From assembly GCA_016845365.1 (NCBI GenBank), contig JAERST010000003.1:8961-72960 (forward strand): a stretch of DNA of 64,000 nucleotides, in the 5' to 3' direction. The notes beneath the pieces are model-generated. The model was not told the origin of the DNA. It worked only from the letters and a program-made list of their open reading frames with translations, and searched no databases. Positions within the stretch are counted from its first letter, which is position 1, and each line of letters opens with the position of its first letter. This DNA comes from Methanobacteriota archaeon (lineage in GTDB: Archaea; Thermoplasmatota; Poseidoniia; Poseidoniales; Thalassarchaeaceae). The position numbers were made by a program, and so were the translations under genes. This document shows positions 12,071 to 53,543 of the stretch, one piece after another.

Positions 12071-14104
12071 TCAATTCTGCAGGCGAATGGTTGCCAAATT
12101 GGCCGGAGGTGGGAATGGTAGGTTCTCGATTTCGTAATTGTTGACGTTGTTATTCGCCGCCCAAGCTCTCGACCAAAGGTCGAGGGTATCCGAATTGAGA
12201 TGCTCTGCCAACCAAAGGAGGCCATCGTCGAGGGTTCCGTACTGTTCTGCCAAACTGTCGAGGACTGCCTCGGGCAATTCTAGGAAGTTGACAGAGTTGC
12301 CCAATACGCAGTCTGGTGGTACAACGACCCAGCGCAAGCGACGGTTCTGCTGGGCGTTGACGATTGCTTGGCAAGCGATTCTGCTAACTCCGCGCGGCTC
12401 GATAGGCCCCTTCCACAGAGCCTGCGCGCGCTCGAGAGAATCTTTTGGAATCTGAGGATTATATCCAGGGTGTCGGATCGATACCTTGCCATTTTCCAAG
12501 TTGAAGTGGATTCCACGAATGAACGGGGTGCCGCGAGAGCGAGGATTCCAGGCACGGATATCGGATGACCAAGTTGTTTGGTCAATCTCTCCGACACGAA
12601 CGCGGATTGGGTCGCCGCTCGGGTTGAGCCAATTGTGTTCCTCGGAAAGTCGAGGCAAGTCTGCGAGCTGCGAGATTGCGGAGAGGACTGAGCGGCGCTC
12701 GTGTTCTGCGCGTGGCATGCGCGGTACTGCCCAATTTGTATCGGTCCATACAGCCCACGCGCCGCGGTCGAGTACCATCTTCGGCGACTTCGGGTCAAGT
12801 CCGGATGAAGGCAAGATATCGCTGCTCTCGAGAGGCCCCCAACTGGTTAGTTCCGAGGTTTCTCCGCCAACGGTGATGCCGATGACAAGAACGCCTTGGG
12901 ATACTCCCGGGAAAACTCTCTGACTCTCAGGGAAGGACCAAGCCGAATCCCAATCATTGCGCTCGACGATAAGTTTGCGAAGAGGGATACTGCTCTTCTC
13001 GCGCAATAGCGAGTCGGGGACAATCATTCGAACTCGACCTCCCTCGCGGACGAGTTGCATCGAGCGCTCGAGGAAGAGGCGGTAGAGATTCACATTGCCG
13101 AGCAATGTGCTGAATCGTAGCCGACCATCATCTTCGGTGATACTGCGGAGTTCGCGTGAAAGTTCCTTGCGAAGGCGGCTGCCTTCTGGGTGGCCGCGGA
13201 ATCTGTCTTTGATTCGTAGCCAAGGTGGATTGCAGATTAGTAGGCGAGGCGCCTCATCCCACGGCCAGATACCTCGCAAGGCGTCCCCGTGCTGAACGCT
13301 GATCTCGAGCAGTTGCTCTGCGACTGCTCGTCCAATTCTCGCCTCATCTCCCTCTCCATCCAAATCGACCAATTCCGATTTGGCGAGAACCAAGAGAAGG
13401 CGTCGGCGAGTGCAGCGAACCGCGACTTCAGAGATATCGAGTAATTGCATGTTAGAGAGGAGTCTGATTGTATCCTCCTTGCGGTCGGAATCCGACATTC
13501 CATCGATTCGCTCTGAGTGGACCTTTAGCACCCGCTCAGGGAATAATCCTGCTCCAACAGCGGGGTCTGCGAAGGGAAGTGGAATGCCCGAGGCGGTCTT
13601 TTCTCCAGCCACTACCGCCTCGTCTAATTCATCATCATCTTGCTGAGAATTGGCTTCGTTCATCTGCGCAGCGAAGGCACGGAAGCCAGGTGGTAAAGCT
13701 GCCAGCGAGATGTTGGTAGGCATCTGTGCGGTTTCACCAGCGCCGCGAGCACCTAACTCGTCAGAGAGCATGGCATCCGCGAATCGAGCAGGAGTCGCAT
13801 AGGCGCCGCGAGGCGAGCGACCATCGATTTCAGCATCGTAGCGAGCGAGCATATGGTCGAGAACAGCGCTCGGATTGGAAAGAAGTCCAGCGGGCAGTGT
13901 TGGCCAATCGCTTGGCATGGTAGCAGCGATTGGAATATTGTGGCGAATCGATTCCTCCCAGGCATCTAGCCACGAGTCGAGTTGTTCGATTCTATTCTCG
14001 CACGACCTGTCCAGTCGCGCGTACCATCCCGAAGCGTCGCTGACCATGGTACCGACGCGACTGCCGACATGGGTCTCTTCTTTGAAGGGAACGGTTACTT
14101 CCAA
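12071..14104 (-). CDS. Gamma-class N6-adenine DNA methyltransferase with TaqI-like C-terminal target-recognition domain
   Basis: Motif X RGAYATPARFA, motif I FADPAVGAGLF, motif IV LICNPPW, C-terminal NYEIENLPFP. No nuclease motif seen. Confidence 0.85.
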   Translation of the reverse strand: MEVTVPFKEETHVGSRVGTMVSDASGWYARLDRSCENRIEQLDSWLDAWEESIRHNIPIAATMPSDWPTLPAGLLSNPSAVLDHMLARYDAEIDGRSPRGAYATPARFADAMLSDELGARGAGETAQMPTNISLAALPPGFRAFAAQMNEANSQQDDDELDEAVVAGEKTASGIPLPFADPAVGAGLFPERVLKVHSERIDGMSDSDRKEDTIRLLSNMQLLDISEVAVRCTRRRLLLVLAKSELVDLDGEGDEARIGRAVAEQLLEISVQHGDALRGIWPWDEAPRLLICNPPWLRIKDRFRGHPEGSRLRKELSRELRSITEDDGRLRFSTLLGNVNLYRLFLERSMQLVREGGRVRMIVPDSLLREKSSIPLRKLIVERNDWDSAWSFPESQRVFPGVSQGVLVIGITVGGETSELTSWGPLESSDILPSSGLDPKSPKMVLDRGAWAVWTDTNWAVPRMPRAEHERRSVLSAISQLADLPRLSEEHNWLNPSGDPIRVRVGEIDQTTWSSDIRAWNPRSRGTPFIRGIHFNLENGKVSIRHPGYNPQIPKDSLERAQALWKGPIEPRGVSRIACQAIVNAQQNRRLRWVVVPPDCVLGNSVNFLELPEAVLDSLAEQYGTLDDGLLWLAEHLNSDTLDLWSRAWAANNNVNNYEIENLPFPPPANLATIRLQN

Positions 14105-23985: not shown

Positions 23986-24140
23986 CGATTTTTCCGAAAT
24001 CGGTAAATTTCGTCCGATTTTCCACCGATTTCGGACCTGTCCGGTCAACGGTCTATGGCAGAGTAAGCCCCTCGACCAGCATGGTCGGAAGCCGAACCCC
24101 CACATTGACCGCCCCAAACGCTGTAATTCACAAGAGGAAA

Positions 24141-27100
24141 ATGAACAGAATAGAAGTCGAGCGAGCCCAACTCGCCTCAGCCCTAGTTCTGCTCATGTTA
24201 GCCTCGCTCGCAGCCCCATCGCTGATGGCTACCTCTACCGCTTCCGAGGAGTTAGCACAGGAGCCGACGAGGTTCCCGACAGCCAACGGAACGGTTGACG
24301 AAACCGATGCCCAAACCCTGCTCAGCAATCTCAACGCCAACAATCCAATCGACGTCATGGGTGTGATGGACGATTCCAACCGCATCCACCTAGTTTGGAT
24401 CGAAAATGCAAGCACTCCGCTGCTGCGATACGCTCTCATCCAAGTCTCGAGCGGCATCGACACAGTCCTGATTTCTACCACTCAGGTCGGCGATGCAAAC
24501 GCTACTTCTCTCTCCGCGCCGGCGATGGTTATCGATTCCACCGGCCGCGCTCACATCGTATGGGAAATCACCGATACGGAAATTCTCTACACGCTACTCG
24601 ACCCATCCGAGGATGACCTCGACGGCTCAGCTGGCGACATTCAGAACATGACAATCGCCTCACACACCGTCGCCGACGGCAGCGGTACGCGATCTTCTCC
24701 AGACATCGCCGTCGACTCCTACGACGCCGTTCACATCGTCTGGGTCGATACCTACGACCCTCAGGGCATTTACTTCGGTAGCCCGCTGATCTACTACTGC
24801 ATGCTCTCCGAAGACTCGACGAATGGCTTCCAAGTTCTCATCAACGCAACTCTGGTTACTCCCGCACTAGGTCACCGAGGCAACCCAGCGGTGAGTATCG
24901 GCGCGAACAATACCGTCGTCATCGTCTGGGAAGATACCCGCGGCTCGATAGTCGAGTACGTCGGCTTGATCGATTCATCTGGCTCGATGACGTCGGAGTG
25001 GGCTGATATGTGCGCCGTCTTCTACGGTGGCACTCTGAGTACTGGTGAGAATTTCGCCGGCGTCAAGCCGATGCTCGAGGCGGCGAATATCACCGTCTTG
25101 GAGACGCTTTACACGATTAGTGGCAATATGTATCATGCCAATTCGCACGCGAATTGTGCGAGCGCGGTCTCGACTGGCAACGATGGCTCGAACGGCCCGC
25201 GCTCGACTTATCTGGGCCAGAATGCGACCGATACCTCGGGCGGAATCCGCCCACTAACCGAGGTCGTCTACAATGGTTCAGCGATGACCATCTATTCCGA
25301 TTGGGGATATTGGTCTGAGATGTGGGGCCCAGGTTCGACATGGGCCTGCCAATCGTGGCGCGATGCCTCGGGCAGCGCGCCAGGAAACCCTCCAACCGCT
25401 GTTGACCACGTTTGGAATCCGAACGCGACGAAGCTGGTGATTCCGGTCTCTGACGAGGGACCTTTCGGAGGCTCACCAGCGCTGAACGCGGATGATTACC
25501 AAGCGATAAACGAGTCACACGACGCCTGTTTGCAAGCCGGTGTGACTCCTGTTCCAGTCGCTGGAACCCTCGCTTATGGGGCTAGCACAATCTGGTACAA
25601 TGATACTCACGTGCGTCACCACATGACGAGTTTAGCGCACTGCCCAGACATGAATCAGGTCGGCATTCACGCCCGCACCTGCAATGGCACAACTGTGCAG
25701 AATACCGATGCGGGCGGCGAGATGTTCTACTACCCAACAGAAGAATTGACCCAATTCGACGGCGACTTCGAGAATGGCTACATCACAAGTGGATGGAGTC
25801 AATCCGGAGCCGCGAATTGGTTCGTACAGAGCAATCGAGTGCTCGGTGGCAATTACAGCGCTCAATCGGGTTCAATCGGAGATAGCTCGCACTCGACAAT
25901 CGAGTATGCTGGCGCGATGAATGCAGGAACTCTATCGTTCAATTACTCGATTTCCAGCGAGGCGAATTACGATTATCTACTCTTCTGTGTCGACACCGCA
26001 ACTTGCACGACATCCACTTTCACCGCAGCATGGTCCGGCGAGGCCAATGGAAGCTACACTGCGGCGGTGACCCCGGGTTACCACACCTACACCTGGAAGT
26101 ACGTCAAGGACGTCTCGGTCTCGGGCGGCGACGATAGCGCTTGGATAGACAATGTGCAGATTCCAATCGCTTCTTACACCGATGAGATGAATCAGATGGT
26201 CAGCGCGATTCTCAACATCAGTACAGGAAGTGGGGCCACCAACACCTTCCTCAGCGTCCTCAACCCCTACTCTATTCTCTCGAACCCACGCTCGACCTGG
26301 TCGGTCGGTGACCCCGGTCACACGATCGACGAAGAGACGGGCCAATATCAGGAGGATATCGGCCCGGACACCGATTGGTACTGGCGAGAGGACGGCGGTG
26401 GTTGGGACACCGTCGGACACCTCGTCCTGGTCAATGATACTCAGCTTTCGAAGGGTCACGGCTGGGCCGTGAACCCCGATGTCAATGTTGACGACGATGG
26501 TAATGTACACGTTGTCTGGATCGATGGAAGAAGCGTCTTCCCATCGAAGGAAGGCCCGAGCCAATTGCACTACATGCAGCTCGACCCAGACCGGCAAGGC
26601 GCTCTCGATGGAGCGCCTTGGGGACTTGATTTGGATGAGGTGACAACGGTCAAGGATACCGCTGTGCTTCACTCGAATCTGATTTGGGGCGCTAATCCTC
26701 GCGTCGACTTCGACCGCGATGATTCGATTCACATTACTTGGTTCGAGACGCAGGAATCCAAGTCCGAAAAAGCAGGAGTAGTCGAACTGCGCTGGACTCG
26801 AATCCAGTCGCCGGTGATGAACGGATTCGAGGAATTGCCTCTGAACCGCTACCTCACGCAGGCGTATACGGTTGTCAACACGCGAACGATTACTAGCAGC
26901 ACTCAGAATTTGATGGGTGTATTCGGTAGCGAGTTCGATTCGAGCGCTCAGCCGATCGTTCGCTTTGCATGGCCTGAGCGCACGATTGCTTGGACTGCTA
27001 ACGATTGTACGAATGAGGAGAGCCAGGCGAATAAGTGGGATGTTTGCAAGTGGAGCGAGGATATGTTCGACATGGCTCTCGACCTCGACCCGACAGAGAC

Positions 27101-28970
27101 GGGACACGTTACGATGCAACCTGGACAATCGGTCGAGGTGGCAATGAATCTGCGTGGTATTCAGGTGCCCGGCTCGGTAGATCCGGTCACCATCGAAGCC
27201 GACGGAGCTCCTGCGGACTGGGAGATTTCAGTCGGCTTCGGAGAGAATTACCAGCCGAGCAGTACCGTGACTGAAGGCGGCGAAGAGGATGTATTCCTGC
27301 TGATTAGCGCACCTGATATTCGGCTGGTGAATGAGAATCAACGATTCCACATCGTCGTGACCGTTCAATCCACGACCGACGAATACGCATCTGCGACCCA
27401 GTCGGTGCTCGTCGACCTAGTGAACGAGAATGATTGGAACGACGATGACCAAGACGGAGTCCCCGATGAGGACGACCAATGTCAGTACGGCGAATCCGAT
27501 TGGTATTCAGGAGCGATGACAGACCATGATGGAGATGGTTGTCGCGACGCCACCGAGGATTTGGATGACGATAACGACGGTGTCGAAGACCTCGTCGATG
27601 AGTGCCCAACCGGCGCGATGAACCCGGATAGGGTCGATGCGGACGGCGATGGTTGTGACGATGTTCTCGAGGATACGGACAATGATGGAGACGGAGTGCC
27701 GAACCATCTGGACCAATGTCCTGAGGGCGCGCAATATTGGAACTCATTCTCGACCGACCACGATGGTGACGGATGCCGCGATCCAGACGAGGATGACAAC
27801 GATGACAACGACCCTTACCTCGATGTCGACGATGACTGTCCTAGCGGCGTCATCGGATGGAGTGGAGCGGCTTACGACCACGATTCCGACGGCTGTCAGG
27901 ATTACGAGGAAGACCTCGACGACGATAATGACGGAGTCTTGGACCGCGATGATTCATGCCCATACGGAATGCTCGATTGGATTTCGAATGAAATCAGCGA
28001 TCACGACCGAGATGGCTGCAATGATGCCTACGAGGACGCGGATGTCGACGATGACGGCGTCCTCGACGTAGATGACCTATGCACAACTGGAATGTTCGGC
28101 TGGGATTCGAGCCCACTGAACGATTGGGATGGCGATGGCTGTCACGATGCTGAAGAGGACGAGGATGATGATGGCGATGGATTCCTCGACGCAGACGATT
28201 CCTGCCCTCGCAGCCAGACTCCACACATCGTTGATGCCGATAACGACGGCTGCGACGACCGCAGCGAGGACGATGACCTCGATAACGATGGAATCGTAAC
28301 CTCCGAGGATAATTGCGAGACCAATCCAACACCAGGATGGGTCTCAGCCCTCAATTCTGACCGCGACCGAGACGGATGTGCTGACGCAACCGAGGACGAT
28401 GATGACGATGGCGATGGAGTCCTCGACATAGTCGATGCCTGCCCGCTCAGCAACCGCCTAACATCCGACCACGATAGCGATGGTTGCATGGACGAATTCG
28501 ACCTCGATGACGATGGCGATGGAATCCCTGACTCTCGCGACCAGTGCGCGCGCGGTGCGCTCGGCTGGACCTCTTCGAAGTCAACAGATGTCGATGGGGA
28601 TGGATGTGCCGACGCCAGCGAGGACCTCTCGCTGCCGCGCGGAATCATTGGCACGATTACCGACTCGCCAATTCTGATGGCAGCGATCGGCGCCTTGGTA
28701 GTCGTTGGACTGCTTGGCGCCGCTCTGCAATCTCGACCTCGCGGCCGCGGATCAAGAACTGAGGCCCGCGACGATACTCGCGAGGTCGCCGAATCGATGC
28801 GCGAAGAGGCTCTTTGGGAAGTAAAGACCGAGCCGATTAGCACTCCTCGGGCTGTCGAGAGCGAAGGTGATGACCAGTACCAGAAGTTGGTTGAGACCGG
28901 CTATTCACCTGAGGTTGCCCGCGCGATTGTATCCTCTGAGGATGCCCTACGCAAGAGAAACGGAGAGTGA
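24141..28970 (+). CDS. Giant (about 1609 aa) cell-surface protein: signal/anchor, HxVW repeat region, vWA-like domain, lectin-like jelly-roll, thrombospondin type-3 Ca-binding repeats, C-terminal TM anchor
   Basis: ATG at 24141 preceded by aagaggaaa. Hydrophobic N-terminus. Repeated (H)(I/V)VW strands. MIDAS-like DSSGSM. Many DxDxDGxxDxxD repeats. C-terminal ILMAAIGALVVVGLLGAAL followed by a basic/acidic tail. Confidence 0.85.
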   Translation: MNRIEVERAQLASALVLLMLASLAAPSLMATSTASEELAQEPTRFPTANGTVDETDAQTLLSNLNANNPIDVMGVMDDSNRIHLVWIENASTPLLRYALIQVSSGIDTVLISTTQVGDANATSLSAPAMVIDSTGRAHIVWEITDTEILYTLLDPSEDDLDGSAGDIQNMTIASHTVADGSGTRSSPDIAVDSYDAVHIVWVDTYDPQGIYFGSPLIYYCMLSEDSTNGFQVLINATLVTPALGHRGNPAVSIGANNTVVIVWEDTRGSIVEYVGLIDSSGSMTSEWADMCAVFYGGTLSTGENFAGVKPMLEAANITVLETLYTISGNMYHANSHANCASAVSTGNDGSNGPRSTYLGQNATDTSGGIRPLTEVVYNGSAMTIYSDWGYWSEMWGPGSTWACQSWRDASGSAPGNPPTAVDHVWNPNATKLVIPVSDEGPFGGSPALNADDYQAINESHDACLQAGVTPVPVAGTLAYGASTIWYNDTHVRHHMTSLAHCPDMNQVGIHARTCNGTTVQNTDAGGEMFYYPTEELTQFDGDFENGYITSGWSQSGAANWFVQSNRVLGGNYSAQSGSIGDSSHSTIEYAGAMNAGTLSFNYSISSEANYDYLLFCVDTATCTTSTFTAAWSGEANGSYTAAVTPGYHTYTWKYVKDVSVSGGDDSAWIDNVQIPIASYTDEMNQMVSAILNISTGSGATNTFLSVLNPYSILSNPRSTWSVGDPGHTIDEETGQYQEDIGPDTDWYWREDGGGWDTVGHLVLVNDTQLSKGHGWAVNPDVNVDDDGNVHVVWIDGRSVFPSKEGPSQLHYMQLDPDRQGALDGAPWGLDLDEVTTVKDTAVLHSNLIWGANPRVDFDRDDSIHITWFETQESKSEKAGVVELRWTRIQSPVMNGFEELPLNRYLTQAYTVVNTRTITSSTQNLMGVFGSEFDSSAQPIVRFAWPERTIAWTANDCTNEESQANKWDVCKWSEDMFDMALDLDPTETGHVTMQPGQSVEVAMNLRGIQVPGSVDPVTIEADGAPADWEISVGFGENYQPSSTVTEGGEEDVFLLISAPDIRLVNENQRFHIVVTVQSTTDEYASATQSVLVDLVNENDWNDDDQDGVPDEDDQCQYGESDWYSGAMTDHDGDGCRDATEDLDDDNDGVEDLVDECPTGAMNPDRVDADGDGCDDVLEDTDNDGDGVPNHLDQCPEGAQYWNSFSTDHDGDGCRDPDEDDNDDNDPYLDVDDDCPSGVIGWSGAAYDHDSDGCQDYEEDLDDDNDGVLDRDDSCPYGMLDWISNEISDHDRDGCNDAYEDADVDDDGVLDVDDLCTTGMFGWDSSPLNDWDGDGCHDAEEDEDDDGDGFLDADDSCPRSQTPHIVDADNDGCDDRSEDDDLDNDGIVTSEDNCETNPTPGWVSALNSDRDRDGCADATEDDDDDGDGVLDIVDACPLSNRLTSDHDSDGCMDEFDLDDDGDGIPDSRDQCARGALGWTSSKSTDVDGDGCADASEDLSLPRGIIGTITDSPILMAAIGALVVVGLLGAALQSRPRGRGSRTEARDDTREVAESMREEALWEVKTEPISTPRAVESEGDDQYQKLVETGYSPEVARAIVSSEDALRKRNGE
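27430..28630 (+). repeat. Coding tandem array of thrombospondin type-3-like calcium-binding repeats
   Basis: About 20 or more reiterations of D-x-D-x-D-G-x-x-D-x-x-(E/D)-D with paired Cys (e.g. DHDGDGCRDATEDLDDDNDGVEDLVDEC). Confidence 0.7.
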
Positions 28971-40907: not shown

Positions 40908-42509
40908 ATGGCGAAACACCGCGCGGGCGACCGTCGCATCATCAGTATAAGCATCCCAGAGGACCTTGCCAAGAAGCTCGATAGGCGAGTCGGCAAGGGC
41001 CGAAACAAGGGAAGGTCAGCAACGATCGCAAAAATGATCCAAAATAGCTTGGAAGTCGAGCAAACAGCACCGATTAGCGAGCGCGCGAGCGAGCCCAGAG
41101 CGGCTTCGGGTGCTGCAGGTGAGATTCGAGTCGAGAAGGACACGATGGGCGAGCTAGAAGTTCCAGCAGACCGCTATTTCGGAGCCCAAACCGCTCGCTC
41201 ACTAATCAATTTCGATATCGGAACCGACACCATGGACCCCTCGGTCATCCGCGCCTTCGGAATCCTCAAGCAGGCGGCGGCAGAGACCAATGTCGAACTG
41301 GCACAACTCGATCCACAGATTGGCGCCCTCATCTCAGCCGCCTGCGACGAGGTCATCTCAGGAGCGATGGACGAACACTTCCCGCTCCGAGTCTGGCAAA
41401 CTGGCTCGGGCACTCAAACCAACATGAATTCAAACGAGGTAATCGCCAACCGAGCCATCGAGATGGCCGGCGGCGAATTAGGAAGCAAATCCCCAGTCCA
41501 CCCCAATGACCACGTCAACCGCGGTCAATCCAGCAATGACACATTCCCGACCGCAATGCACATCGCCGCCGCAGAAGAAATCCACCATCGACTTCTGCCA
41601 GCGGTCCGCCACTTGCACAATGCGCTGGCAGCCAAAGCCGCCGAATTCGAGAACATCGTCAAAATCGGCCGCACCCATCTAATGGACGCCGTCCCGCTAA
41701 CCCTCGGCCAGGAATTCGGCGGCTACGCCTCGATGCTCTCAGCAGACATCCGCCGCATCGAGGCAGCCTGGGACGACCTCCTCGAACTCGCGCTCGGAGG
41801 AACAGCGGTCGGCACCGGACTAAACACTCACATCGAGTTCGCAGACAAGGTGGCCGACCGAATCGCAGAGAAGACCGGCCTACCCTTCGTCTCAGCCGAA
41901 AACAAATTCGCACAACTCGCAGCACACGATGCAATAGTAGCCGCATCAGGCTCACTAAACACGCTTGCTGCGAGCCTGATGAAGATCGCCAATGACATCC
42001 GCTGGATGGGATCTGGACCCCGCTGTGGATTCGGAGAACTGGCCCTTCCGGCCAACGAACCAGGGTCGAGTATCATGCCAGGAAAGGTCAACCCAACCCA
42101 AGCCGAAGCGATGACGATGGTCTGTTGTCAGGTAATCGGCAACCACACCGCAATCAGCGTCGGGGGCAGCCAAGGCAACTTCGAACTCAACGTCTACAAG
42201 CCGATGATGATCCACAATTTGCTCCACAGCACACGCCTTCTCGCCGACACCTGCAGGGCCTTCACCGACAGATGCGTGGTCGGGCTCGAGGCCAACGAGG
42301 GTGCGATTGCATCGCACCTCGAGAATAGTCTGATGTTGGTTACAGCGCTGAACAATCACATCGGATACGACAGCGCCGCCAAGATTGCAAAGCACGCGCA
42401 TGCAAATGGAAGCACCTTGCGCGAGGCAGCTGTCGATTTGGGCCTAGTCACGAATGACCAATTCGATCAATGGGTTAGGCCCAAGGAAATGATCGGACCG
42501 AAGCAGTGA
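40908..42509 (+). CDS. fumC: Class II fumarate hydratase with N-terminal ribbon-helix-helix (CopG/NikR-like) extension
   Basis: aa 73 onward [39 protein letters not shown] signature. aa 9-48 [40 protein letters not shown] fits the RHH pattern. One uninterrupted frame. Confidence 0.9.
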
Positions 42510-46067: not shown

Positions 46068-47393
46068 TCACATCAGTATGATTGAGTGCCAGGTAACGAA
46101 AATCAATCCAATTATTGAGAGAACCAGATGACCTTTTCTAAATGAGAGCCATGGTATATATTTCTTCGAAAGTTTAGGGTACAATCCTGAATATCCAGCG
46201 ACAGAAATCAACAATATCCCTATGATTCCCAACCATATTTCAAAAGATATTGGAGGCATCGTATCAGATACACCAAACCCGATTATGTGTATAGCCGTGA
46301 AAGCCATTATCCCTCCGAGTAAGGAAAAATGTAACCACCACCAGTAGGATGCTCTTTCTGCAGGCATTTCAGCATCCCAAGTGGTTCCTGTCGTTCTAGC
46401 TTCCTTGTATCGCTCTTTGTAGAGTCTATCGAGTGCACGTTTTGAAAAACCTTGAACCATAATTAATCCTAGAGCACCTAATCCAAGCCAGCCGTACAAT
46501 ATAGCAACTTTACCTGAGATTGGAGGTTCGGGCAAGGATGCTTGTTTTGGTTCAGGAATTACTGCCAAAGCAGCCTCAACGATTGTTCCTGATTCAGTCT
46601 CGGCAGTAAAGGAGATATGAGTGCCATTTGAGGCAGGTGCGGGTCCAATATATTCTACAACAACACTCCAGCCCGCTTGAAGAGAGCCGTCGAATTGAAC
46701 CTCAGTCAAGCTTCCATTCGCGTCGAAAACATCTGTGAATCTGACAGCTCCCCTTTGAGTGGTTGAATTAATTTTTGTAAGATTCGCAGATCCAATATTG
46801 ATTAATTTTGTACTAGATTCATTACCTTCGCCAAGTACAATCAAAGAAGGACTCGCAGTAAATACTCTGAAATGTACTTGGATATTCAACTCCAAAGGGA
46901 TTGATTCAGTTTGACGGTCAGGTCTCTTGGACGATGAGTGGTCATAAAATGCCACAGCATTGAGAGTAACACTAACACTCAATTGATCCACTCCAGCTGA
47001 AGGAGTAACATTGACCCAGCCAGACGTCGACGAACCTGCTGCTAATTCTCCCTCCCAAGGGGTGAATGCTGGAGAATCAGTCGACCCCCCAATAACATCG
47101 ATAATCATCTCTGGTTCAATCCAAACATTCCGCCAAGGAGCTGAAGCAGTCCATCGAATGGCATTATCCACTCCTGCATTCATTGGTTGAGATGCGTAAA
47201 GTGAAAGTCCAATTTCACGATAGGAGGAATGGCAACTATTGCATGATCTCGATTGAGCACTTGCATCCTCAAAAAGTGGTGGATCAACATTGCCTCCAAG
47301 CAGAAGAATTACGAGAAAAGAAAGGGCCAAAGACCGATGGAGTTGTTTAATCAAAAAATCACCTCTCTTCGATGTTAAATGACGAGGATTCAA
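46068..47393 (-). CDS. Membrane protein with CxxCH motif, large extracytoplasmic domain and bis-(H-x13-H) four-TM module (putative heme c / di-heme b protein)
   Basis: N-terminal anchor. CNSCH at aa 51-55 (nt 47229-47243). About 250 aa Ser/Thr/Val-rich domain. TM helices with H355/H369 and H422/H436. ATGA start/stop overlap with the upstream gene. Confidence 0.7.
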   Translation of the reverse strand: MNPRHLTSKRGDFLIKQLHRSLALSFLVILLLGGNVDPPLFEDASAQSRSCNSCHSSYREIGLSLYASQPMNAGVDNAIRWTASAPWRNVWIEPEMIIDVIGGSTDSPAFTPWEGELAAGSSTSGWVNVTPSAGVDQLSVSVTLNAVAFYDHSSSKRPDRQTESIPLELNIQVHFRVFTASPSLIVLGEGNESSTKLINIGSANLTKINSTTQRGAVRFTDVFDANGSLTEVQFDGSLQAGWSVVVEYIGPAPASNGTHISFTAETESGTIVEAALAVIPEPKQASLPEPPISGKVAILYGWLGLGALGLIMVQGFSKRALDRLYKERYKEARTTGTTWDAEMPAERASYWWWLHFSLLGGIMAFTAIHIIGFGVSDTMPPISFEIWLGIIGILLISVAGYSGLYPKLSKKYIPWLSFRKGHLVLSIIGLIFVTWHSIILM

Positions 47394-48145
47394 TCTTCAT
47401 CGTCCTCGTCTTCATCTTCCTCATCCAGGTCATCTTCATCTTCTTCTGTAGACGAATCATCAGAGTCAGAGTCCTGCTCATCAGTTTCATCTTCATCTAT
47501 CACTTCAGACGTATTATCGTCCGAGGAATCACTCGTATTTTCATCATCAATTTCGCCCTCGGATGTTGAATCCGATGAATCATTTTCAGAGGTTTCTGCA
47601 TCATCCTCAACTGAGCCACTTCCGTCTTGAGGATTCATTGAATCGTCTGCTCCTGAATCCTCATGAGATTCATCATCTACTTCGCCATCGGAGTCAGAGG
47701 CCCCCTCACTGTTTTCTTCATCTTCGAAGTCATCCACTTCGTCTTCCCCTTCTTCATTGTCAATGTGACCTCCATCTTCGTCGACTTCGTCCTCATCCTC
47801 GTCCCGGTCGTCCCAATCATCGTCTTCATCGTCCTCCTCATCCCAATCGTCGTAGTCGTCGTCATCATCCCAATTATCATCATCATGCTCGGTCATTACG
47901 TTGTCGAAGATCTGTTGATCACTCGTAGATGACACGGCTGAACTTGAGCTAGCAGTTGTTGTTGAATCAATTGCAGAAGGTGAATCAGTTGTCAATGAAC
48001 CTTGGTTCTGACCTAGTGAAGATGAGTCTGTGTTGATTCCATCTTCGGTTACCAATCCATCTGATGGGATGAACACAGCGGTTAACCCACCGAGTACTAG
48101 TAAGCCAATTGTCAAAACAGCTGTCGCGAATTGTTGTCGTTTCAT
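47390..48145 (-). CDS. Membrane-anchored hyper-acidic (Asp/Glu-rich) low-complexity protein
   Basis: ATG at 48145 gives MKRQQFATAVLTIGLLVLGG anchor, a Ser/Thr linker, then about 190 aa that are mostly D/E with interspersed Trp (DDDNWDDDDDYDDWDEEDDEDDDWDD). Confidence 0.65.
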   Translation of the reverse strand: MKRQQFATAVLTIGLLVLGGLTAVFIPSDGLVTEDGINTDSSSLGQNQGSLTTDSPSAIDSTTTASSSSAVSSTSDQQIFDNVMTEHDDDNWDDDDDYDDWDEEDDEDDDWDDRDEDEDEVDEDGGHIDNEEGEDEVDDFEDEENSEGASDSDGEVDDESHEDSGADDSMNPQDGSGSVEDDAETSENDSSDSTSEGEIDDENTSDSSDDNTSEVIDEDETDEQDSDSDDSSTEEDEDDLDEEDEDEDDED

Positions 48146-48186
48146 CGTTATCGAACCTTGGCATAGAGCTAGGGTACATAGGACGG

Positions 48187-48223
48187 TTGGCACAATGGTC
48201 GACAATGTCGAAAATTGTGCCAA
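48187..48223. promoter_or_regulatory. 37-bp nested palindrome in the divergent promoter region (candidate operator)
   Basis: TTGGCACAAT-gg-TCGAC-aat-GTCGA-aa-ATTGTGCCAA. Lies between divergent starts at 48145 (-) and 48259 (+). Confidence 0.5.
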
Positions 48224-48258
48224 GAAGTATGAATAATGATGGAATTAACCGGAGAACA

Positions 48259-48564
48259 ATGTCTCTTGACTATGAAATACTTGAATTTGGATTGGCCGCA
48301 GCTGCTGGGCTCCTAGCTCTCATTCCATCTGGTTTGACCTTCGCTGCATGGAGGAGAACTCGAAGTCCACGGATATTTTTTGCAATGTTGGCATTTTTCT
48401 CCTTCACTATTCGAGGATTAATTCTGGGTATTCTCTTCATTAGAGGCTCTCCTGAAATATATCACGAAATTGCTGAATTTGGAGGAGATATTGTAATCAT
48501 CACTCTGTTTGTTATCGCCTTCATATCACCATCAAGTGGTAGTGTGCTAGAAGAAGAGGAATGA
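48259..48564 (+). CDS. Small three-TM membrane protein
   Basis: ATG at 48259 preceded by ggag. 101 aa with three hydrophobic helices and a C-terminal EEEE. Confidence 0.55.
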   Translation: MSLDYEILEFGLAAAAGLLALIPSGLTFAAWRRTRSPRIFFAMLAFFSFTIRGLILGILFIRGSPEIYHEIAEFGGDIVIITLFVIAFISPSSGSVLEEEE

Positions 48565-48585
48565 ATTACAGAAGAGTTGAGATTG

Positions 48586-49116
48586 ATGGGTAAGAAAGGT
48601 CGCCGATTGACTCGAAGAGTCAATGAGCGTAAGCGTATGCTCCTCGAAGTAATTGCTCGAAATCCAGGAATTCATCTTCGTGCCCTTGAAAGACAATCTG
48701 GAATTGCGTTAGGCGCTTTGAGGAATCTACTGGATTCACTCATCAATTCGGATTTAATCCTAGAATCTCAAATCGATGGCCGTAGAGTATTCTTCTCATC
48801 TCGAGGCATCGAACCTGATGATCAGCGAATCGTCGCACTACTCAGAAAGAGTCAACTTCGCCAAATTGTTGAATCTCTTCTACATCATGGTAGCCGGAGT
48901 AGGAAGGAGCTTCGTGAAGAACTCAACATCCCCAGAACCACACTTCGAGGCCATTTGGACCGCATGGCTGCAGCTGGATTATTGGAGCTAGGGAAACAAA
49001 TATCCCTAACCGACCCAATCCGGATACAACGAATATTACTTCTCACTCGGGAGAGTTTGATTGAGAGAATGGTTAACTCTGTGATTGAGATTTTTGATGA
49101 AAACCATTCGATGTGA
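48586..49116 (+). CDS. Transcriptional regulator with two winged-helix (ArsR/MarR-like) domains
   Basis: LLEVIARNPGIHLRALERQSGIALGALRNLLDSLINSDLI and SRKELREELNIPRTTLRGHLDRMAAAGLLEL. Confidence 0.7.
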   Translation: MGKKGRRLTRRVNERKRMLLEVIARNPGIHLRALERQSGIALGALRNLLDSLINSDLILESQIDGRRVFFSSRGIEPDDQRIVALLRKSQLRQIVESLLHHGSRSRKELREELNIPRTTLRGHLDRMAAAGLLELGKQISLTDPIRIQRILLLTRESLIERMVNSVIEIFDENHSM

Positions 49117-49156: not shown

Positions 49157-50038
49157 TCAGATTTCGATGCCAAACCATCCACGTAACGCGATACCAATTC
49201 CGAATGAAATCGCGCTGACCACAACCAAAATTCCAGCCATTTCAGTAAAGCGCTTTCCAAATGATTCATCCTGTGCCACCGCTACATAGCCGTTGAAAGC
49301 GGCAACGATGCCCAAACCAATCCCTAGCGTGCAAACAAGAGCCTGCATGTGTGGTTCTAAGCCGAGGCGCAGAGGATCTTCGCCACTTAGCAAAAGATAG
49401 GGCATGACTAACAGCATGACTGTCGCGATGTAAGCGATTCCAGTGAACGCAGCTGCCTTCAGCGGGGAGCGACCATCGTTCTCTTCTTTAGTTGCCAAAT
49501 ACTCTGAAGCCGCCATCGAAAAAGATGCTGCTATTCCTGTAACAAGGCCAGCTAAAGCAACAAGATTTAGCGATTGAAAAGCGAAGGTCAATCCGGCTAA
49601 AGCGCCGGTTAATTCGACGAGGGCATCAGAAAGTCCAAGAATTACAGAACCGAGATATTGCAAGCCTTCTTCTTCCAAGAGGCCGACTAATTCTGCCTCG
49701 TGTGCTTCTTCCTCTTCCGCAATTTCATCGAGGCCTAATTCACGATATTCAGAAGCCATTTTCTTCTCGCTATTTTCCATCATTTTGACAGTAAAAGTGA
49801 GACCAAAAAATCTCGCTAACAAAATCTGCCAAATCACCATTAATCGATTGATTTTGACAACTTCTCCTGTCCGCTCAGCAATCACCGCTTCATGCCGCTC
49901 TTCTTCGCGTGCAATACGTTCGAGAACCTCACGATTCGCCTCATCTTTCTGGGCTCTTGCAAGTCGTCGGTAGACCTCCGCCTCGGTCGCTTCCATTCGT
50001 TGGAGGCGGAGCAGTCGGCGGCGGGTGGATTCTTCCAT
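49157..50038 (-). CDS. VIT1/CCC1 family iron transporter with N-terminal ferritin-like domain
   Basis: N-terminal EAEVYRRLA...EEERHE di-iron-like helices. C-terminal five-TM VIT1 region (GLSDALVELTGALAG, MAASEY). Confidence 0.85.
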   Translation of the reverse strand: MEESTRRRLLRLQRMEATEAEVYRRLARAQKDEANREVLERIAREEERHEAVIAERTGEVVKINRLMVIWQILLARFFGLTFTVKMMENSEKKMASEYRELGLDEIAEEEEAHEAELVGLLEEEGLQYLGSVILGLSDALVELTGALAGLTFAFQSLNLVALAGLVTGIAASFSMAASEYLATKEENDGRSPLKAAAFTGIAYIATVMLLVMPYLLLSGEDPLRLGLEPHMQALVCTLGIGLGIVAAFNGYVAVAQDESFGKRFTEMAGILVVVSAISFGIGIALRGWFGIEI

Positions 50039-51995: not shown

Positions 51996-53543
51996 ATGTC
52001 GCGCCCTGAGAGCAAGGTGAATATCGCCGTTGCTGACCGCATTTTGCTGCATCTTTGGGAGCAGGACCATCAGGCTGACCACTACCTTGTGAGCCGTGAG
52101 GTCACTCGCCCGGGAATCGCAGAAATTTGCGCTCTTCACCCGCCTAACGTCTCACGCGCGATGCGCGATCTCGCATTCGATGGAATGGTCTCAGAGCACA
52201 CTCGGGTGGTTCGCGGGGACGAGCGCCGGCAGAAGACTTGGCAGCTGACCGAGGAGGGTCGCGAACAAGTTGGTCGCAGGTTACCCGAACTTCGACAGAC
52301 CAAGGTTTTGCTACGCGAGCGCGGTGGAAATTTGTTGGAAGTCCGCGCTGATGAGGCCGGGGCTCGGCTTGAAACCGGTCTGACCTTGCTACAAGTTTTA
52401 ATGCACGCCCAACACGAAGGTGTGCTGAACTTTGGAGACATTCGATTCGGCGCAATCGTTCGGGCTGAGAAGGAGGAGGCAGCCGCGCCAGGTTCGCTCA
52501 AATTACTCGCTGGCGCGCACTCAACATACCACACGCGCCCTCCGGAGACTCGCACGGTTCATGGGCGCGAATCTGAGGTTCAGACGCTTGATGATTGGTT
52601 TGAGGGCGATGCCTCGATGGTGGTCATTTCTGGCATCGCCGGATGTGGAAAAACCACTCTGACTAGCCATTGGCTTGAGCACGCCCTCGAATCGAATCCC
52701 AGCCTAGAGGTGATGTATTATCCATGCCAACCTTGGGATTCCACCCTCGGAATCGCCACCAGTCTACTTCACAGGTTGGGAATTAGTTCTGAGAACGAGG
52801 GCGAGGACCCCTACGAAGTCCTCGAAGCGCTACCGTTGAAACCGGGAGCGCGCCTCGATCTCGACCTCTACCGCCGCCGTCTGATCGCACACTTGCTCGA
52901 TGAGGAAGGACGTCGAGGTGAGGCGGCGGATTCGCATCTTGTCATCCTTGATGACGTACACAATATCGGCGCTGATGGAGCGAATTTCTTCGGAGCACTC
53001 CTCCAAGTCGCTGAGTCGACCAGCATGCGTCTGCTGCTGGTCTCCAGAACCAATCTCGCATTTTACGACCGACGCGACGTGCACACGCGCGGTCGCGTCG
53101 TCGAGTTACGATTGACCGGCCTCTCACTTGAAGAAGTTGCAGAATGGATTGACTCAATCGAGCTTCCCTCGGACGCTCCGGCGGAGGAAATCCATCGCGG
53201 CACCGGCGGCCATCCACTCGCGGTTGAATTGCTGGAACTTTACGGCAAAACTCTGCACGATGATTGGTTGCGATTCCTCGATGAGGAAATTCTCGACGTT
53301 CTTCCAGACGACCATCGAGAATTGCTGGCCTTGCTCGCGGTTGCCGACCGCCCAATTCCTTGGGAAAATTTGGCGGCGGCTGCCGGATACGATGGAACGC
53401 CGCCAGAAGCGCTCGTCACTCGCGGCTTGATGCTCGAACTCGAGAGTGGAATGTGGCTGCATGAAGCCCTGCGCTCGCGATTATTGCGCGAGGTCGGCCA
53501 ACCTCTGGAAGAGCGCGCTCGCAAATTGCGAGAATCTCTGTGA
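51996..53543 (+). CDS. wHTH-fused STAND/AAA-type P-loop NTPase
   Basis: N-terminal MarR-like wHTH. HGRESEVQTLDDWF...VVISGIAGCGKTTL Walker A. LVILDDVH Walker B. Helical C-terminal region. Starts 4 nt after the peptidase gene, with ggaggag upstream. Confidence 0.7.
   Translation: MSRPESKVNIAVADRILLHLWEQDHQADHYLVSREVTRPGIAEICALHPPNVSRAMRDLAFDGMVSEHTRVVRGDERRQKTWQLTEEGREQVGRRLPELRQTKVLLRERGGNLLEVRADEAGARLETGLTLLQVLMHAQHEGVLNFGDIRFGAIVRAEKEEAAAPGSLKLLAGAHSTYHTRPPETRTVHGRESEVQTLDDWFEGDASMVVISGIAGCGKTTLTSHWLEHALESNPSLEVMYYPCQPWDSTLGIATSLLHRLGISSENEGEDPYEVLEALPLKPGARLDLDLYRRRLIAHLLDEEGRRGEAADSHLVILDDVHNIGADGANFFGALLQVAESTSMRLLLVSRTNLAFYDRRDVHTRGRVVELRLTGLSLEEVAEWIDSIELPSDAPAEEIHRGTGGHPLAVELLELYGKTLHDDWLRFLDEEILDVLPDDHRELLALLAVADRPIPWENLAAAAGYDGTPPEALVTRGLMLELESGMWLHEALRSRLLREVGQPLEERARKLRESL

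What the first reader, a model, noticed from the sequence alone, without database searches (positions are those of the whole stretch)
46068..47393. Candidate transmembrane electron conduit: CxxCH motif, large outer domain and two TM helices each with H-x13-H
What the sequence shows: the 441-aa product has a positive-inside N-terminal anchor and then CNSCH at aa 51-55. That is the covalent heme c attachment motif.

A Ser/Thr/Val-rich beta-type domain of about 250 aa follows, then four TM helices. TM2 carries H355 and H369, and TM4 carries H422 and H436. Each pair is exactly H-x13-H. The cytoplasmic loops are Lys/Arg-rich, which gives a consistent topology.

What is established: H-x13-H on two helices of a four-helix bundle is the classical ligand geometry for two stacked b hemes. 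Cytochrome b of bc1/b6f and the membrane subunits of formate dehydrogenase-N and hydrogenases are examples.

What I infer: one polypeptide could move electrons from the membrane or cytoplasmic side to an extracytoplasmic heme c site. I recognise no named family with this architecture, and it sits in a compositionally foreign island of an archaeon.
Basis: partly seen in the sequence, partly recalled or inferred. Interest (0 to 1): 0.8.

Follow-up and report, generated by a model that had tools for sequence, protein, structure and literature searches.

The report
Candidate three-heme membrane cytochrome, Marine Group II
A marine planktonic archaeon carries a rare, unannotated membrane protein whose strictly conserved residues fit a wire of two membrane hemes plus one outward-facing heme, possibly for handling iron outside the cell; no experiment has tested this yet.

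Summary
The gene lies on the minus strand at 46068-47393 and encodes 441 aa with CNSCH at 51-55, H355/H369 and H422/H436.

The family is tiny: about 10 clusters among billions of proteins, all unannotated. All seven residues, plus H152, are invariant down to 22% identity.

I add a second signature. TM1 and TM3 each carry an invariant G-x13-G (G301/G315, G389/G403) at the depths of the His pairs. As I recall it, that is the heme-packing pattern of cytochrome b in bc1. The di-heme b bundle is therefore well supported.

The ectodomain is a signal-peptide-led tandem beta-sandwich, and its glycosylation sequons are confined to that part. Heme c is plausible but unproven. The host is a Poseidoniales (MGII) archaeon, a phylum reported to lack classical cytochromes c, and maturation genes could not be checked.

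No family match is significant (DUF4405 is sub-threshold; MsrQ, STEAP and b561 are not significant).

The gene belongs to a conserved four-gene cassette with a membrane-anchored polyacidic protein, a small membrane protein and a wHTH regulator, around a conserved 37-bp palindrome. The cassette is a low-GC island that diverges far more than its flanks. VIT1 or FeoB neighbours hint at iron.

Verdict: a new variant of a known kind, of moderate to high interest.

The parts
46068..47393 (-). Gene for the 441-aa candidate cytochrome (TTG start, 4-nt overlap with the upstream gene)
   Evidence: homologues
47256..47393 (-). aa 1-46: signal peptide-like N-terminus. It has a basic n-region, the hydrophobic stretch SLALSFLVILLLGG, and an invariant Ala46 in an A-x-A-like site 4 residues before Cys51.
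   Evidence: The same layout is found upstream of mis-called starts in L001, L003 and L005. Cleavage is inferred.
47229..47243 (-). aa 51-55: CNSCH, the candidate covalent heme c site
   Evidence: invariant in 10/10 members
46938..46940 (-). His152 in the conserved motif YDH-x-SS-x-x-PD. It is the only other invariant ectodomain His and the candidate distal ligand. No Met is conserved.
   Evidence: the ligand role is inferred
46557..47210 (-). aa 62-279: two beta-sandwich (Ig/CARDB-like) ectodomains that carry all N-x-S/T sequons
   Evidence: AF2; Foldseek tandem-Ig hits at E 2e-8; CARDB 7.5e-7 in member P0010; sequons
46071..46514 (-). aa 294-441: four-helix membrane domain. TM1 has G301-x13-G315, TM2 H355-x13-H369, TM3 G389-x13-G403 and TM4 H422-x13-H436. 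A conserved cytoplasmic-face motif E342-x-P-x-E-R-x-x-Y-W-W-W precedes TM2.
47390..48145 (-). Upstream co-directional gene: an N-terminally membrane-anchored, Ser/Thr-rich then poly-Asp/Glu protein (likely start M27 of the 277-aa ORF). It has the conserved core IFDNVM..HDDD.WDDDD. A counterpart precedes the cytochrome gene in every locus with upstream sequence.
48187..48223 (.). 37-bp palindrome TTGGCACA-N21-TGTGCCAA in the divergent intergenic region; a candidate operator
   Evidence: Unique in the window, 0 expected. Present at the equivalent place in L001, L009 and L010, and in L012 with 1 mismatch.
48259..48564 (+). Small 3-TM membrane protein, DUF7471-like (sub-threshold)
   Evidence: E 4.9e-5, 23.7 bits against cutoff 27; orthologues in L001, L009, L012 and L008
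48577..49116 (+). Regulator with two winged-helix domains (HTH_HVO_0163_N, MarR_2/HTH_24)
   Evidence: orthologues in L001, L008, L009 and L010; weak ArsR/SmtB metalloregulator similarity
49157..50038 (-). Flanking gene, not part of the variable cassette: a VIT1-family Fe/Mn transporter with a ferritin-like N-domain (MbfA-like, weak)
   Evidence: 91% identical to the L009 orthologue

Best explanation
The gene encodes a membrane cytochrome that carries single electrons across the cytoplasmic membrane.

Export and anchoring. A Sec-type signal peptide exports a glycosylated tandem beta-sandwich ectodomain. Four C-terminal helices anchor it.

The membrane hemes. TM2 and TM4 run from inside to outside, and each offers two His spaced 14 residues apart. 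H355 and H422 would ligate a heme b near the cytoplasmic face. H369 and H436 would ligate a second heme b near the outer face. Invariant Gly pairs on TM1 and TM3, at the same two depths, make room for the porphyrins.

The outer site. The mature N-terminus carries CxxCH, and H152 sits on a loop of the first sandwich. Together they most likely bind a third, covalently attached bis-His heme c. That heme would take electrons from the outer heme b and pass them to an extracellular acceptor.

The cassette. The protein is made together with a membrane-anchored polyacidic protein, with which it appears translationally coupled. A wHTH regulator, paired with a small membrane protein, probably controls both through a 37-bp palindrome.

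The function. The most likely job is redox handling of a metal cation at the cell surface. I favour Fe(III) reduction for uptake.

Shown: the motifs, their invariance, the predicted topology and folds, the cassette, the palindrome and the island behaviour.
Inferred: heme binding itself, signal cleavage, H152 as a ligand, the direction of electron flow, the electron donor and the iron link.
For: Residue conservation. C51, C54, H55, H152, H355, H369, H422 and H436 are invariant in every member that covers them, down to 22% identity. The four other His are not conserved.

Membrane domain. Of the 18 invariant positions in the 150-residue membrane region, 4 are the His pairs and 4 are G301/G315 and G389/G403 at x13 spacing. 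As I recall the human sequence, cytochrome b has the same layout: G34/G48, H83/H97, G116/G130, H182/H196. The heme-packing role of helix-A Gly34 is documented in PMC8379992. On TM2 and TM4 the conserved residues follow an i, i+3/4, i+7 stripe that includes the His, so the His lie on the conserved, inward face.

Topology. It follows the positive-inside rule, and all N-x-S/T sequons in all members lie in the ectodomain.

Weak, mutually consistent family hints. DUF4405 appears in 5 of 11 members, best E 0.0041. STEAP4 TM3/TM5 aligns with H369 and H436 on what I recall as its heme ligands H304/H397, at E 0.87. DUF4405 proteins have been shown to bind heme b (PMC11334425).

No competing family. Nothing passes threshold in Pfam, NCBIfam or PADLOC.

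Gene context. The four-gene cassette recurs in the window, L001, L008, L009/L010 and L012. In L007 only the acidic partner is seen.

Iron context. FeoB lies directly upstream in L008. A VIT1/MbfA-like gene is adjacent in the window, L005 and L009. Asp/His-rich extracellular tails occur in two cassette proteins.
Against: No heme binding has been measured for any member.

Heme c maturation. The host is a Poseidoniales archaeon. Classical cytochrome c families were reported absent from all Thermoplasmatota genomes surveyed (PMC9287336). No ccm-like gene is in the window. Genome-wide maturation capacity is unknown.

Structure. The region 30-56 that holds CxxCH is modelled below pLDDT 50, and the TM bundle only at about 70-85.

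Homology. The TM-only model has no significant structural neighbour; the best Foldseek E is 2.6 and cytochrome b561 reaches TM 0.41 at E 6. hhalign against an MsrQ profile gives probability 0.08%.

Iron link. It rests on two independent neighbourhoods. VIT1 belongs to the conserved flank, not the cassette. L001 has no iron gene nearby.
Confidence: 0.55

Rival explanations
1. The di-heme b membrane bundle is real, but the CxxCH...H152 site is not heme c. After Sec export it would bind a metal ion (Cu or Fe), hold a non-covalent heme between H55 and H152, or act as a redox-active CxxC pair that the outer heme b feeds.
For: The host phylum is reported to lack classical c-type cytochromes and to use blue copper proteins next to its oxidases (PMC9287336; taxon). 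No ccm gene is in the window. Most single CxxCH motifs in archaea are not heme sites (PMC4429474). AF2 leaves the motif region disordered.
Against: CxxCH, including the His, is invariant in 10/10 members. It sits a few residues after a signal-peptide cleavage-type site, which meets the acceptance criteria used in PMC4429474. The signal peptides show no consistent twin-arginine motif, so a pre-folded cofactor such as an Fe-S cluster is unlikely. The fold is not thioredoxin-like. The family also occurs in other lineages, with contig GC 0.55-0.75, whose maturation capacity is unknown.
Confidence: 0.25
2. The same three-centre wire runs in the opposite direction. It would oxidise an extracellular donor, for example Fe(II) released by the neighbouring VIT1/MbfA-type exporter, and deliver electrons to the quinone pool. 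The Fe(III) formed would be trapped on the polyacidic protein, as a detoxification or storage ferroxidase.
For: A VIT1/MbfA-like exporter lies next to the cassette in three genomes. The polyacidic partner resembles mineral- or cation-binding proteins (inference). Related DUF4405-like FezC cytochromes are proposed to cycle iron in ferrosomes (PMC11334425).
Against: The only conserved candidate distal ligand is His, not Met. By general cytochrome chemistry (my knowledge), bis-His hemes tend to low potentials, which suit reduction of acceptors. VIT1 is part of the conserved flank rather than the exchanged cassette. The L008 copy sits behind the importer FeoB.
Confidence: 0.2
3. It is the membrane anchor and electron-entry subunit of a larger respiratory enzyme, as FdnI, NarI or the cytochrome b of bc complexes are. 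It would oxidise quinol and hand electrons to a separate catalytic partner, with no role in metal handling.
For: The His/Gly x13 pattern matches respiratory cytochrome b (plus my recollection of the cytochrome b sequence). Conserved residues cluster at the cytoplasmic membrane face (E342, P344, E346, R347, Y350, W351-353, G400-P406) and could form a quinone site (inference).
Against: No oxidoreductase catalytic subunit is encoded next to the gene in any of the nine homologue loci (L001-L005, L007-L010, L012). The invariable partners are an acidic anchored protein, a small membrane protein and a regulator. The helix orientation is inverted relative to cytochrome b of bc1 (plus my knowledge of bc1 topology).
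Confidence: 0.1
4. It is not a redox protein. It would be a variable surface protein, such as an adhesin, an S-layer-associated anchor or a virus receptor, and the conserved His and Gly would serve helix packing or metal sensing.
For: The ectodomain is tandem Ig/CARDB-like, as in adhesins. The cassette behaves as a hypervariable replacement island: 52-75% identity against 91-95% in the flanks. That pattern is typical of surface structures under diversifying selection (inference).
Against: Four buried His at two matched depths, four Gly in register and an invariant CxxCH form a specific cofactor signature that a packing role does not explain. The variable parts are the beta-sandwich surfaces, not these residues. 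Surface exposure and redox function are not mutually exclusive.
Confidence: 0.07

Closest known systems
Cytochrome b of bc1/b6f complexes (N-terminal four-helix bundle; Pfam Cytochrome_B / Cytochrom_B_N)
   Same: Four consecutive helices carry G-x13-G, H-x13-H, G-x13-G, H-x13-H. This gives two bis-His b hemes stacked across the membrane, with Gly allowing close heme packing (cytochrome b positions from my memory; the role of Gly34 from PMC8379992).
   Different: No detectable sequence similarity. The helix orientation is inverted: here the His helices run from inside to outside. There are no helices E-H and no Rieske or cytochrome c1 partners. The domain is fused to an exported beta-sandwich domain.
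DUF4405 / MsrQ-like / PepSY-TM (FoxB) / FezC class of prokaryotic membrane b-cytochromes (PMC11334425; arCOG04002 in PMC5898192)
   Same: A small helical membrane domain has four central His as its most conserved residues. These proteins are proposed or shown to bind heme b and to move electrons to extracytoplasmic or organelle iron chemistry. The His helices have the same orientation as in the ferric-reductase-domain core. Sub-threshold DUF4405 hits occur in 5 of 11 members.
   Different: Scores stay below the Pfam cutoff, best 18 bits against 26.7. hhalign against MsrQ is not significant. The domain has 4 TM helices rather than the 6-TM DUF4405 or MsrQ models. It is not associated with ApbE or flavinylation genes. 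It carries CxxCH instead of a flavinylated partner.
Eukaryotic CYBDOM proteins (DOMON + cytochrome b561; for example the Arabidopsis CRR and HYP1 ferric reductases, PMC10784552 and PMC10784544)
   Same: The overall logic is the same: an extracellular beta-sandwich heme domain fused to a di-heme b transmembrane domain, forming a three-heme wire that reduces extracellular Fe(III).
   Different: The parts are unrelated. There is no DOMON or b561 profile match, and the Foldseek hit to b561 is not significant. The outer heme would be covalent c-type rather than b-type. There are 4 TM helices rather than 6. The cytoplasmic electron donor is unknown.
Bacterial b/c fusion or paired quinol dehydrogenases for extracellular electron transfer, and magnetosome MamZ (ferric-reductase-like domain) with MamX (CxxCH magnetochrome); both cited from my own knowledge
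   Same: A b-type membrane domain is combined with extracytoplasmic CxxCH heme(s). The combination is linked to iron redox chemistry and to acidic iron-binding proteins.
   Different: These are different protein families. They are multi-heme or multi-subunit, and bacterial. None was detected by any search here.

Membership tests
c-type cytochrome (covalent heme via CxxCH) | CxxCH motif present and conserved among homologues | tested here: met
   CNSCH at 51-55; C, C and H invariant in 10/10 members
c-type cytochrome (covalent heme via CxxCH) | Motif located in an exported part of the protein | tested here: met
   Signal-peptide-like N-terminus with invariant Ala46; positive-inside topology; sequons only in the ectodomain. 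This is a prediction, not an experiment.
c-type cytochrome (covalent heme via CxxCH) | Cytochrome c maturation system (Ccm or Ccs) in the same genome | not testable with these tools
   None in the 64-kb window. The literature reports classical cytochrome c families absent from surveyed Thermoplasmatota (PMC9287336).
c-type cytochrome (covalent heme via CxxCH) | Heme stays bound after denaturation (heme stain, pyridine hemochrome at 550 nm) | not testable with these tools
   Needs an experiment.
Cytochrome b / b6 (Pfam Cytochrome_B, Cytochrom_B_N) | Two H-x13/14-H helices plus Gly pairs on the alternate helices | tested here: met
   H355/H369, H422/H436, G301/G315 and G389/G403, all invariant
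Cytochrome b / b6 (Pfam Cytochrome_B, Cytochrom_B_N) | Significant profile match | tested here: not met
   No hit at E up to 10 for any of the 11 members
Cytochrome b / b6 (Pfam Cytochrome_B, Cytochrom_B_N) | N-terminus on the cytoplasmic side, with His helices running outside to inside | tested here: not met
   The predicted topology is inverted. The bc1 topology is from my own knowledge.
DUF4405 (PF14358) | Profile score at or above the gathering threshold (26.7 bits) | tested here: not met
   Best 18.0 bits, E 0.0041 (P0011). Five of 11 members give weak hits covering TM3-TM4.
DUF4405 (PF14358) | Centrally placed, most-conserved His pairs in the TM helices | tested here: met
   feature as described in PMC11334425
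Ferric reductase domain superfamily (PF01794; MsrQ, NOX, STEAP) | Significant sequence or profile similarity | tested here: not met
   No Pfam hit. STEAP4 at E 0.87-1.6 only. hhalign against E. coli MsrQ and a low-diversity MsrQ profile gives probability 0.08%.
Ferric reductase domain superfamily (PF01794; MsrQ, NOX, STEAP) | Six-TM domain with the His on TM3 and TM5 | tested here: not met
   Only four TM helices follow the ectodomain. They could correspond to the TM2-TM5 core, but that is inference.
Cytochrome b561 / CYBDOM | b561 and DOMON profile or fold match | tested here: not met
   No Pfam hit. Foldseek to 4o6y/4o7g gives E 6-8 and TM 0.41. hhalign against E. coli YodB gives probability 0.3%.
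CARDB / Ig-like beta-sandwich surface domains | Beta-sandwich fold or profile match in the ectodomain | tested here: met
   P0010 matches CARDB at 29.7 bits, above the 22.7 cutoff. AF2 predicts two sandwiches at high pLDDT. Foldseek finds tandem-Ig hits at E 2e-8. The window protein itself has no Pfam hit.

The most novel reading that the evidence does not exclude
Marine Group II archaea are among the most abundant planktonic archaea and are thought to lack c-type cytochromes. In this reading they carry a laterally exchanged, self-regulated four-gene module for electron export to the cell surface. The module would comprise a previously unrecognised three-heme (c + 2b) wire, built on a cytochrome-b-like bundle of inverted topology, together with a polyacidic metal-binding brush. 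It would be used to reduce and capture scarce iron, and it would imply a heme c attachment route not yet recognised in this phylum.
Probability: 0.2. Interest if true: 0.8.

Novelty: new variant of a known kind. Interest (0 to 1): 0.62.

Why it matters
Poseidoniales (MGII) are uncultured and globally abundant, and how they acquire iron or exchange electrons with their surroundings is largely unknown. A conserved membrane-spanning heme wire with an outward-facing redox site would give them a route for extracellular electron transfer or reductive iron uptake. It would also be a concrete, clonable target.

Three further points follow if the reading holds.
- It would be a candidate c-type cytochrome in a phylum reported to have none.
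- It shows that the Gly/His x13 heme-packing pattern of cytochrome b recurs in an unrelated, topologically inverted four-helix domain.
- The exchange of the whole cassette between close relatives says something about selection on archaeal surface redox machinery.

Public databases list the family only as 'hypothetical protein'. They often truncate it so that the CxxCH motif is lost.

Tried and rejected
- Pfam and NCBIfam on the protein and on all 11 members: nothing above threshold. The recurrent DUF805 hits (E at least 0.023) look like hydrophobic-composition matches.
- Exhaustive profile search of 1.84 billion representatives: only 6 family members and no distant relatives.
- Word-indexed search with the TM-domain profile at E up to 10: returned only P0011.
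- PDB sequence searches with the full profile, the TM profile and two single members: only chance-level hits; STEAP4 at E about 0.9.
- Foldseek with the full model: dominated by generic tandem-Ig proteins.
- Foldseek with the TM-only model: no hit better than E 2.6.
- hhalign of the TM profile against E. coli MsrQ, YodB and an MsrQ alignment: not significant. The MsrQ search returned only homologues at least 77% identical among those listed, nearly all 84% or more, so the profile had little diversity. This was a poor use of the last search.
- Internal duplication (TM1-2 against TM3-4): weak, E 0.0047 and probability 7.5%.
- Rieske-type or other Fe-S reading of the 2 Cys + 2 His: rejected, because the signal peptides lack a consistent twin-arginine motif and the spacing differs.
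- Defence-system reading of the variable island: no PADLOC match beyond generic wHTH similarity.
- Ccm genes: a regex for the WWD motif and Pfam scans of the large ORFs found none in the window.
- Literature on Ccm in Poseidoniales: nothing found.
- Rfam: only tRNA-Cys.
Full report

Yes. The ORF lies on the minus strand at 46068..47393. It encodes 441 aa from a TTG start that overlaps the stop codon of the upstream gene by 4 nt.

- CNSCH is at residues 51-55 and holds the only two cysteines.
- His lies at 355/369 and 422/436, both pairs at x13 spacing.
- Hydropathy and two AlphaFold2 runs give one N-terminal hydrophobic segment and four C-terminal helices. The runs were the full length (mean pLDDT 73.8) and the membrane domain alone (78.7).
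- Basic residues are confined to the N-tail (5), loop 1 (8) and loop 3 (5). Loop 2 has none.
- Between the motif and the helices lie two beta-sandwich domains, 62-175 and 178-279, modelled at pLDDT mostly 85-93.

A lone CxxCH means little. Three other six-frame ORFs in this window carry one. A published archaeal survey judged 4347 of 4410 single-motif proteins to be false positives (PMC4429474). The public gene call for this protein (P0001, 371 aa) starts at Met71 and drops both the signal peptide and the motif.

**2. Conservation**

The family is very small. There are six clusters in a 5.8-billion-protein index and six representatives in an exhaustive scan of 1.84 billion proteins. The only name any source gives is 'hypothetical protein [Euryarchaeota archaeon]'.

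I aligned 11 members spanning 22-67% identity to the window protein.

- C51, C54, H55 and H152 are present in all 10 members that cover them.
- H355, H369, H422 and H436 are present in all 11.
- The other four His of the window protein are not conserved, and no Met is conserved.
- The N-terminal extension is coding. Longer homologues conserve a basic, then hydrophobic, then small-x-Ala layout with an invariant Ala46 four residues before Cys51.
- The same layout sits upstream of the mis-called starts in L003, L004 and L005.
- L001 has it too, though no ATG, GTG or TTG precedes its hydrophobic region.

**3. A second signature in the membrane domain**

Of the 18 invariant positions in residues 292-441, four are the His and four are glycines in two x13 pairs. 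These are G301/G315 on TM1 and G389/G403 on TM3.

With the predicted topology, G315, H355, G403 and H422 lie near the cytoplasmic face. G301, H369, G389 and H436 lie near the outer face. Each putative heme level therefore has two His ligands and two Gly contacts.

This is the arrangement I recall for helices A-D of mitochondrial cytochrome b (G34/G48, H83/H97, G116/G130, H182/H196). The requirement for a small residue at Gly34 for heme packing is documented in PMC8379992.

On TM2 and TM4 the other conserved residues fall on the same helical face as the His. These are L358, L359, F365, T366 and G372 on TM2, and L425, G429 and W435 on TM4. The His therefore point into the bundle rather than toward lipid.

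I consider the di-heme b reading well supported by sequence, at roughly 0.85. I could not obtain model coordinates, so His-His distances were not measured.

**4. What family is it?**

None that can be shown.

- Pfam and NCBIfam give nothing above threshold.
- Five of 11 members give weak DUF4405 hits over TM3-TM4, best E 0.0041 at 18 bits against a cutoff of 26.7.
- A PDB profile search puts STEAP4 at E 0.87. It aligns H369 and H436 with the residues I recall as its heme ligands.
- hhalign against E. coli MsrQ, YodB and a low-diversity MsrQ profile is not significant.
- Foldseek with the TM-only model finds nothing better than E 2.6. Cytochrome b561 reaches TM 0.41 at E 6.

DUF4405 proteins were recently shown to bind heme b. 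They were grouped with MsrQ-like, PepSY-like and ferrosome FezC cytochromes (PMC11334425). Earlier work called DUF4405 half of a cytochrome b561 (PMC5898192). The present domain works like that class and like cytochrome b, but it fails their membership tests.

The ectodomain is Ig/CARDB-like. Member P0010 matches CARDB at 7.5e-7, and Foldseek finds tandem-Ig hits at 2e-8. No heme-binding fold was recognised.

**5. Is the outer site heme c?**

In favour:
- The CxxCH is invariant and sits just after a signal-peptide cleavage-type site.
- H152 is an invariant second His, in the motif YDH-x-SS-x-x-PD.
- All N-x-S/T sequons of all members lie in this domain, which fits an extracellular location.
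- The protein belongs to no other family. Together with the motif conservation and the signal peptide, this meets the acceptance criteria used in PMC4429474.

Against:
- The host is a Poseidoniales (MGII) archaeon, probably Thalassarchaeaceae. This rests on the organism names of proteins at least 90% identical to flanking genes.
- One survey found classical cytochrome c families absent from all Thermoplasmatota genomes it examined (PMC9287336).
- No ccm gene is in the window. The remaining genome could not be reached with these tools.

I put heme c at about 0.5. The main alternative is a metal site or a non-covalent heme at the same residues.

**6. Genomic setting**

The gene is the last of a four-gene cassette.

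- *Upstream gene.* A co-directional gene at 47390..48145 overlaps the cytochrome gene. It encodes an N-terminally anchored protein with a Ser/Thr-rich spacer and a long poly-Asp/Glu tail, with Trp or His interspersed. It has the conserved core IFDNVM..HDDD.WDDDD.
- *Divergent genes.* Transcribed the other way are a 3-TM DUF7471-like protein (48259..48564) and a double winged-helix regulator (48577..49116; HTH_HVO_0163_N, MarR_2).
- *Recurrence.* The full set recurs in L001, L009/L010 and L008, and in part in L012 and L007. This includes members only 22-36% identical to the window protein.
- *Palindrome.* The divergent intergenic region holds a 37-bp palindrome, TTGGCACA-N21-TGTGCCAA, at 48187-48223. 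It is unique in the window with 0 expected by chance. It is conserved in position in L001, L009, L010 and L012. It is a likely operator for the regulator.

**7. The 'foreign island'**

The GC dip covers exactly these four genes. Their GC3 is 0.33-0.38, against 0.59-0.69 in the flanks.

The closest relative, L009, is fully syntenic from PolD to the AAA_16 gene and shows the same dip. Yet the flanking proteins are 91-95% identical between the two genomes (the PQQ-like propeller 83%), while the cassette proteins are only 52-75% identical (cytochrome 67%).

Lower-GC relatives (L001, L005, about 0.44) carry the cassette at ambient GC. This is a replacement-type variable island at a fixed site. The whole module appears to be exchanged among relatives. 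It is not a one-off insertion.

**8. Function**

No catalytic oxidoreductase lies next to the gene in any locus. Three things hint at iron.

- FeoB lies directly upstream of the cassette in L008.
- A VIT1/MbfA-like gene adjoins it in the window, L005 and L009. This gene belongs to the conserved flank.
- Asp/His-rich extracellular segments occur in two cassette proteins.

The regulator has weak ArsR/SmtB-like similarity. The only candidate sixth ligand for the outer heme is His, and bis-His hemes usually have low potentials (my knowledge).

I therefore favour outward electron flow to a surface-bound metal, most plausibly Fe(III) reduction for uptake. The closest analogues in logic, though not in ancestry, are the eukaryotic DOMON-b561 ferric reductases (PMC10784552, PMC10784544). 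This functional step is inference, at about 0.35.

**9. Verdict**

- The protein is a new variant of a known kind, namely a b-type membrane cytochrome fused to an outward-facing redox domain. It belongs to a family with no detectable relatives, in an ecologically important uncultured archaeal group.

Noticed in passing
window 46068-49116; L009 8214-11290: The four-gene cassette is a replacement-type variable island. Cassette proteins are 52-75% identical between the window and the syntenic relative L009, while most flanking proteins are 91-95% identical (PQQ-like propeller 83%). Cassette GC3 is 0.33-0.40 in both genomes, against 0.58-0.71 in the flanks (window VIT1 is intermediate at 0.45).
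   Followed up: partly
window 48187-48223: A perfect 37-bp palindrome, TTGGCACA-N21-TGTGCCAA, lies between the divergently transcribed gene pairs. It is unique in the window and conserved at the same place in L001, L009, L010 and L012. L008 instead has two direct TGTCCCAAA repeats upstream of its acidic gene. It is a likely operator of the cassette regulator.
   Followed up: partly
window 47390-48223 (-): This gene encodes a membrane-anchored protein with a Ser/Thr-rich spacer and an extreme poly-Asp/Glu tail (Trp or His interspersed) and a conserved IFDNVM..HDDD.WDDDD core. It precedes the cytochrome gene in every locus. It matches no Pfam, NCBIfam or PADLOC family. The listed ORF start (48223) lies inside the palindrome, so Met27 (48145) is the likelier start.
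   Followed up: partly
window 47183-47393; L001 7869-8001; L003 75-170: Public gene calls truncate this family. The window protein is stored as 371 aa from Met71. P0004, P0005 and P0006 also start after the signal peptide. In L001 the hydrophobic N-region has no ATG, GTG or TTG upstream, which suggests a non-canonical start codon.
   Followed up: partly
window 49157-50038 (-): A VIT1-family transporter with an N-terminal ferritin/rubrerythrin-like domain (weakly MbfA-like iron exporter). It is adjacent to the cassette here and in L005 and L009, but it is part of the conserved flank.
   Followed up: partly
L008 2-1687: FeoB (ferrous iron transporter, TIGR00437 at 6e-75) lies directly upstream of the cassette around the divergent member P0009. 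There all four cassette genes are on one strand.
   Followed up: partly
window 51996-53543 (+): A 515-aa protein with an N-terminal Crp-like HTH and an AAA_16/STAND-type ATPase domain. It is conserved next to the S15 peptidase in L009.
   Followed up: no
window 24081-28970 (+) and 12071-14104 (-): A 1629-aa protein with a thrombospondin type 3 repeat (probably a giant surface protein), and a 677-aa Eco57I-like restriction-modification methylase.
   Followed up: no
window 40908-42509 (+): The class II fumarase ORF has an N-terminal extension with a weak ribbon-helix-helix (CopG) match (E 0.0018). Several database members of its cluster are 491 aa rather than 533 aa, so the start may be over-extended.
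   Followed up: no
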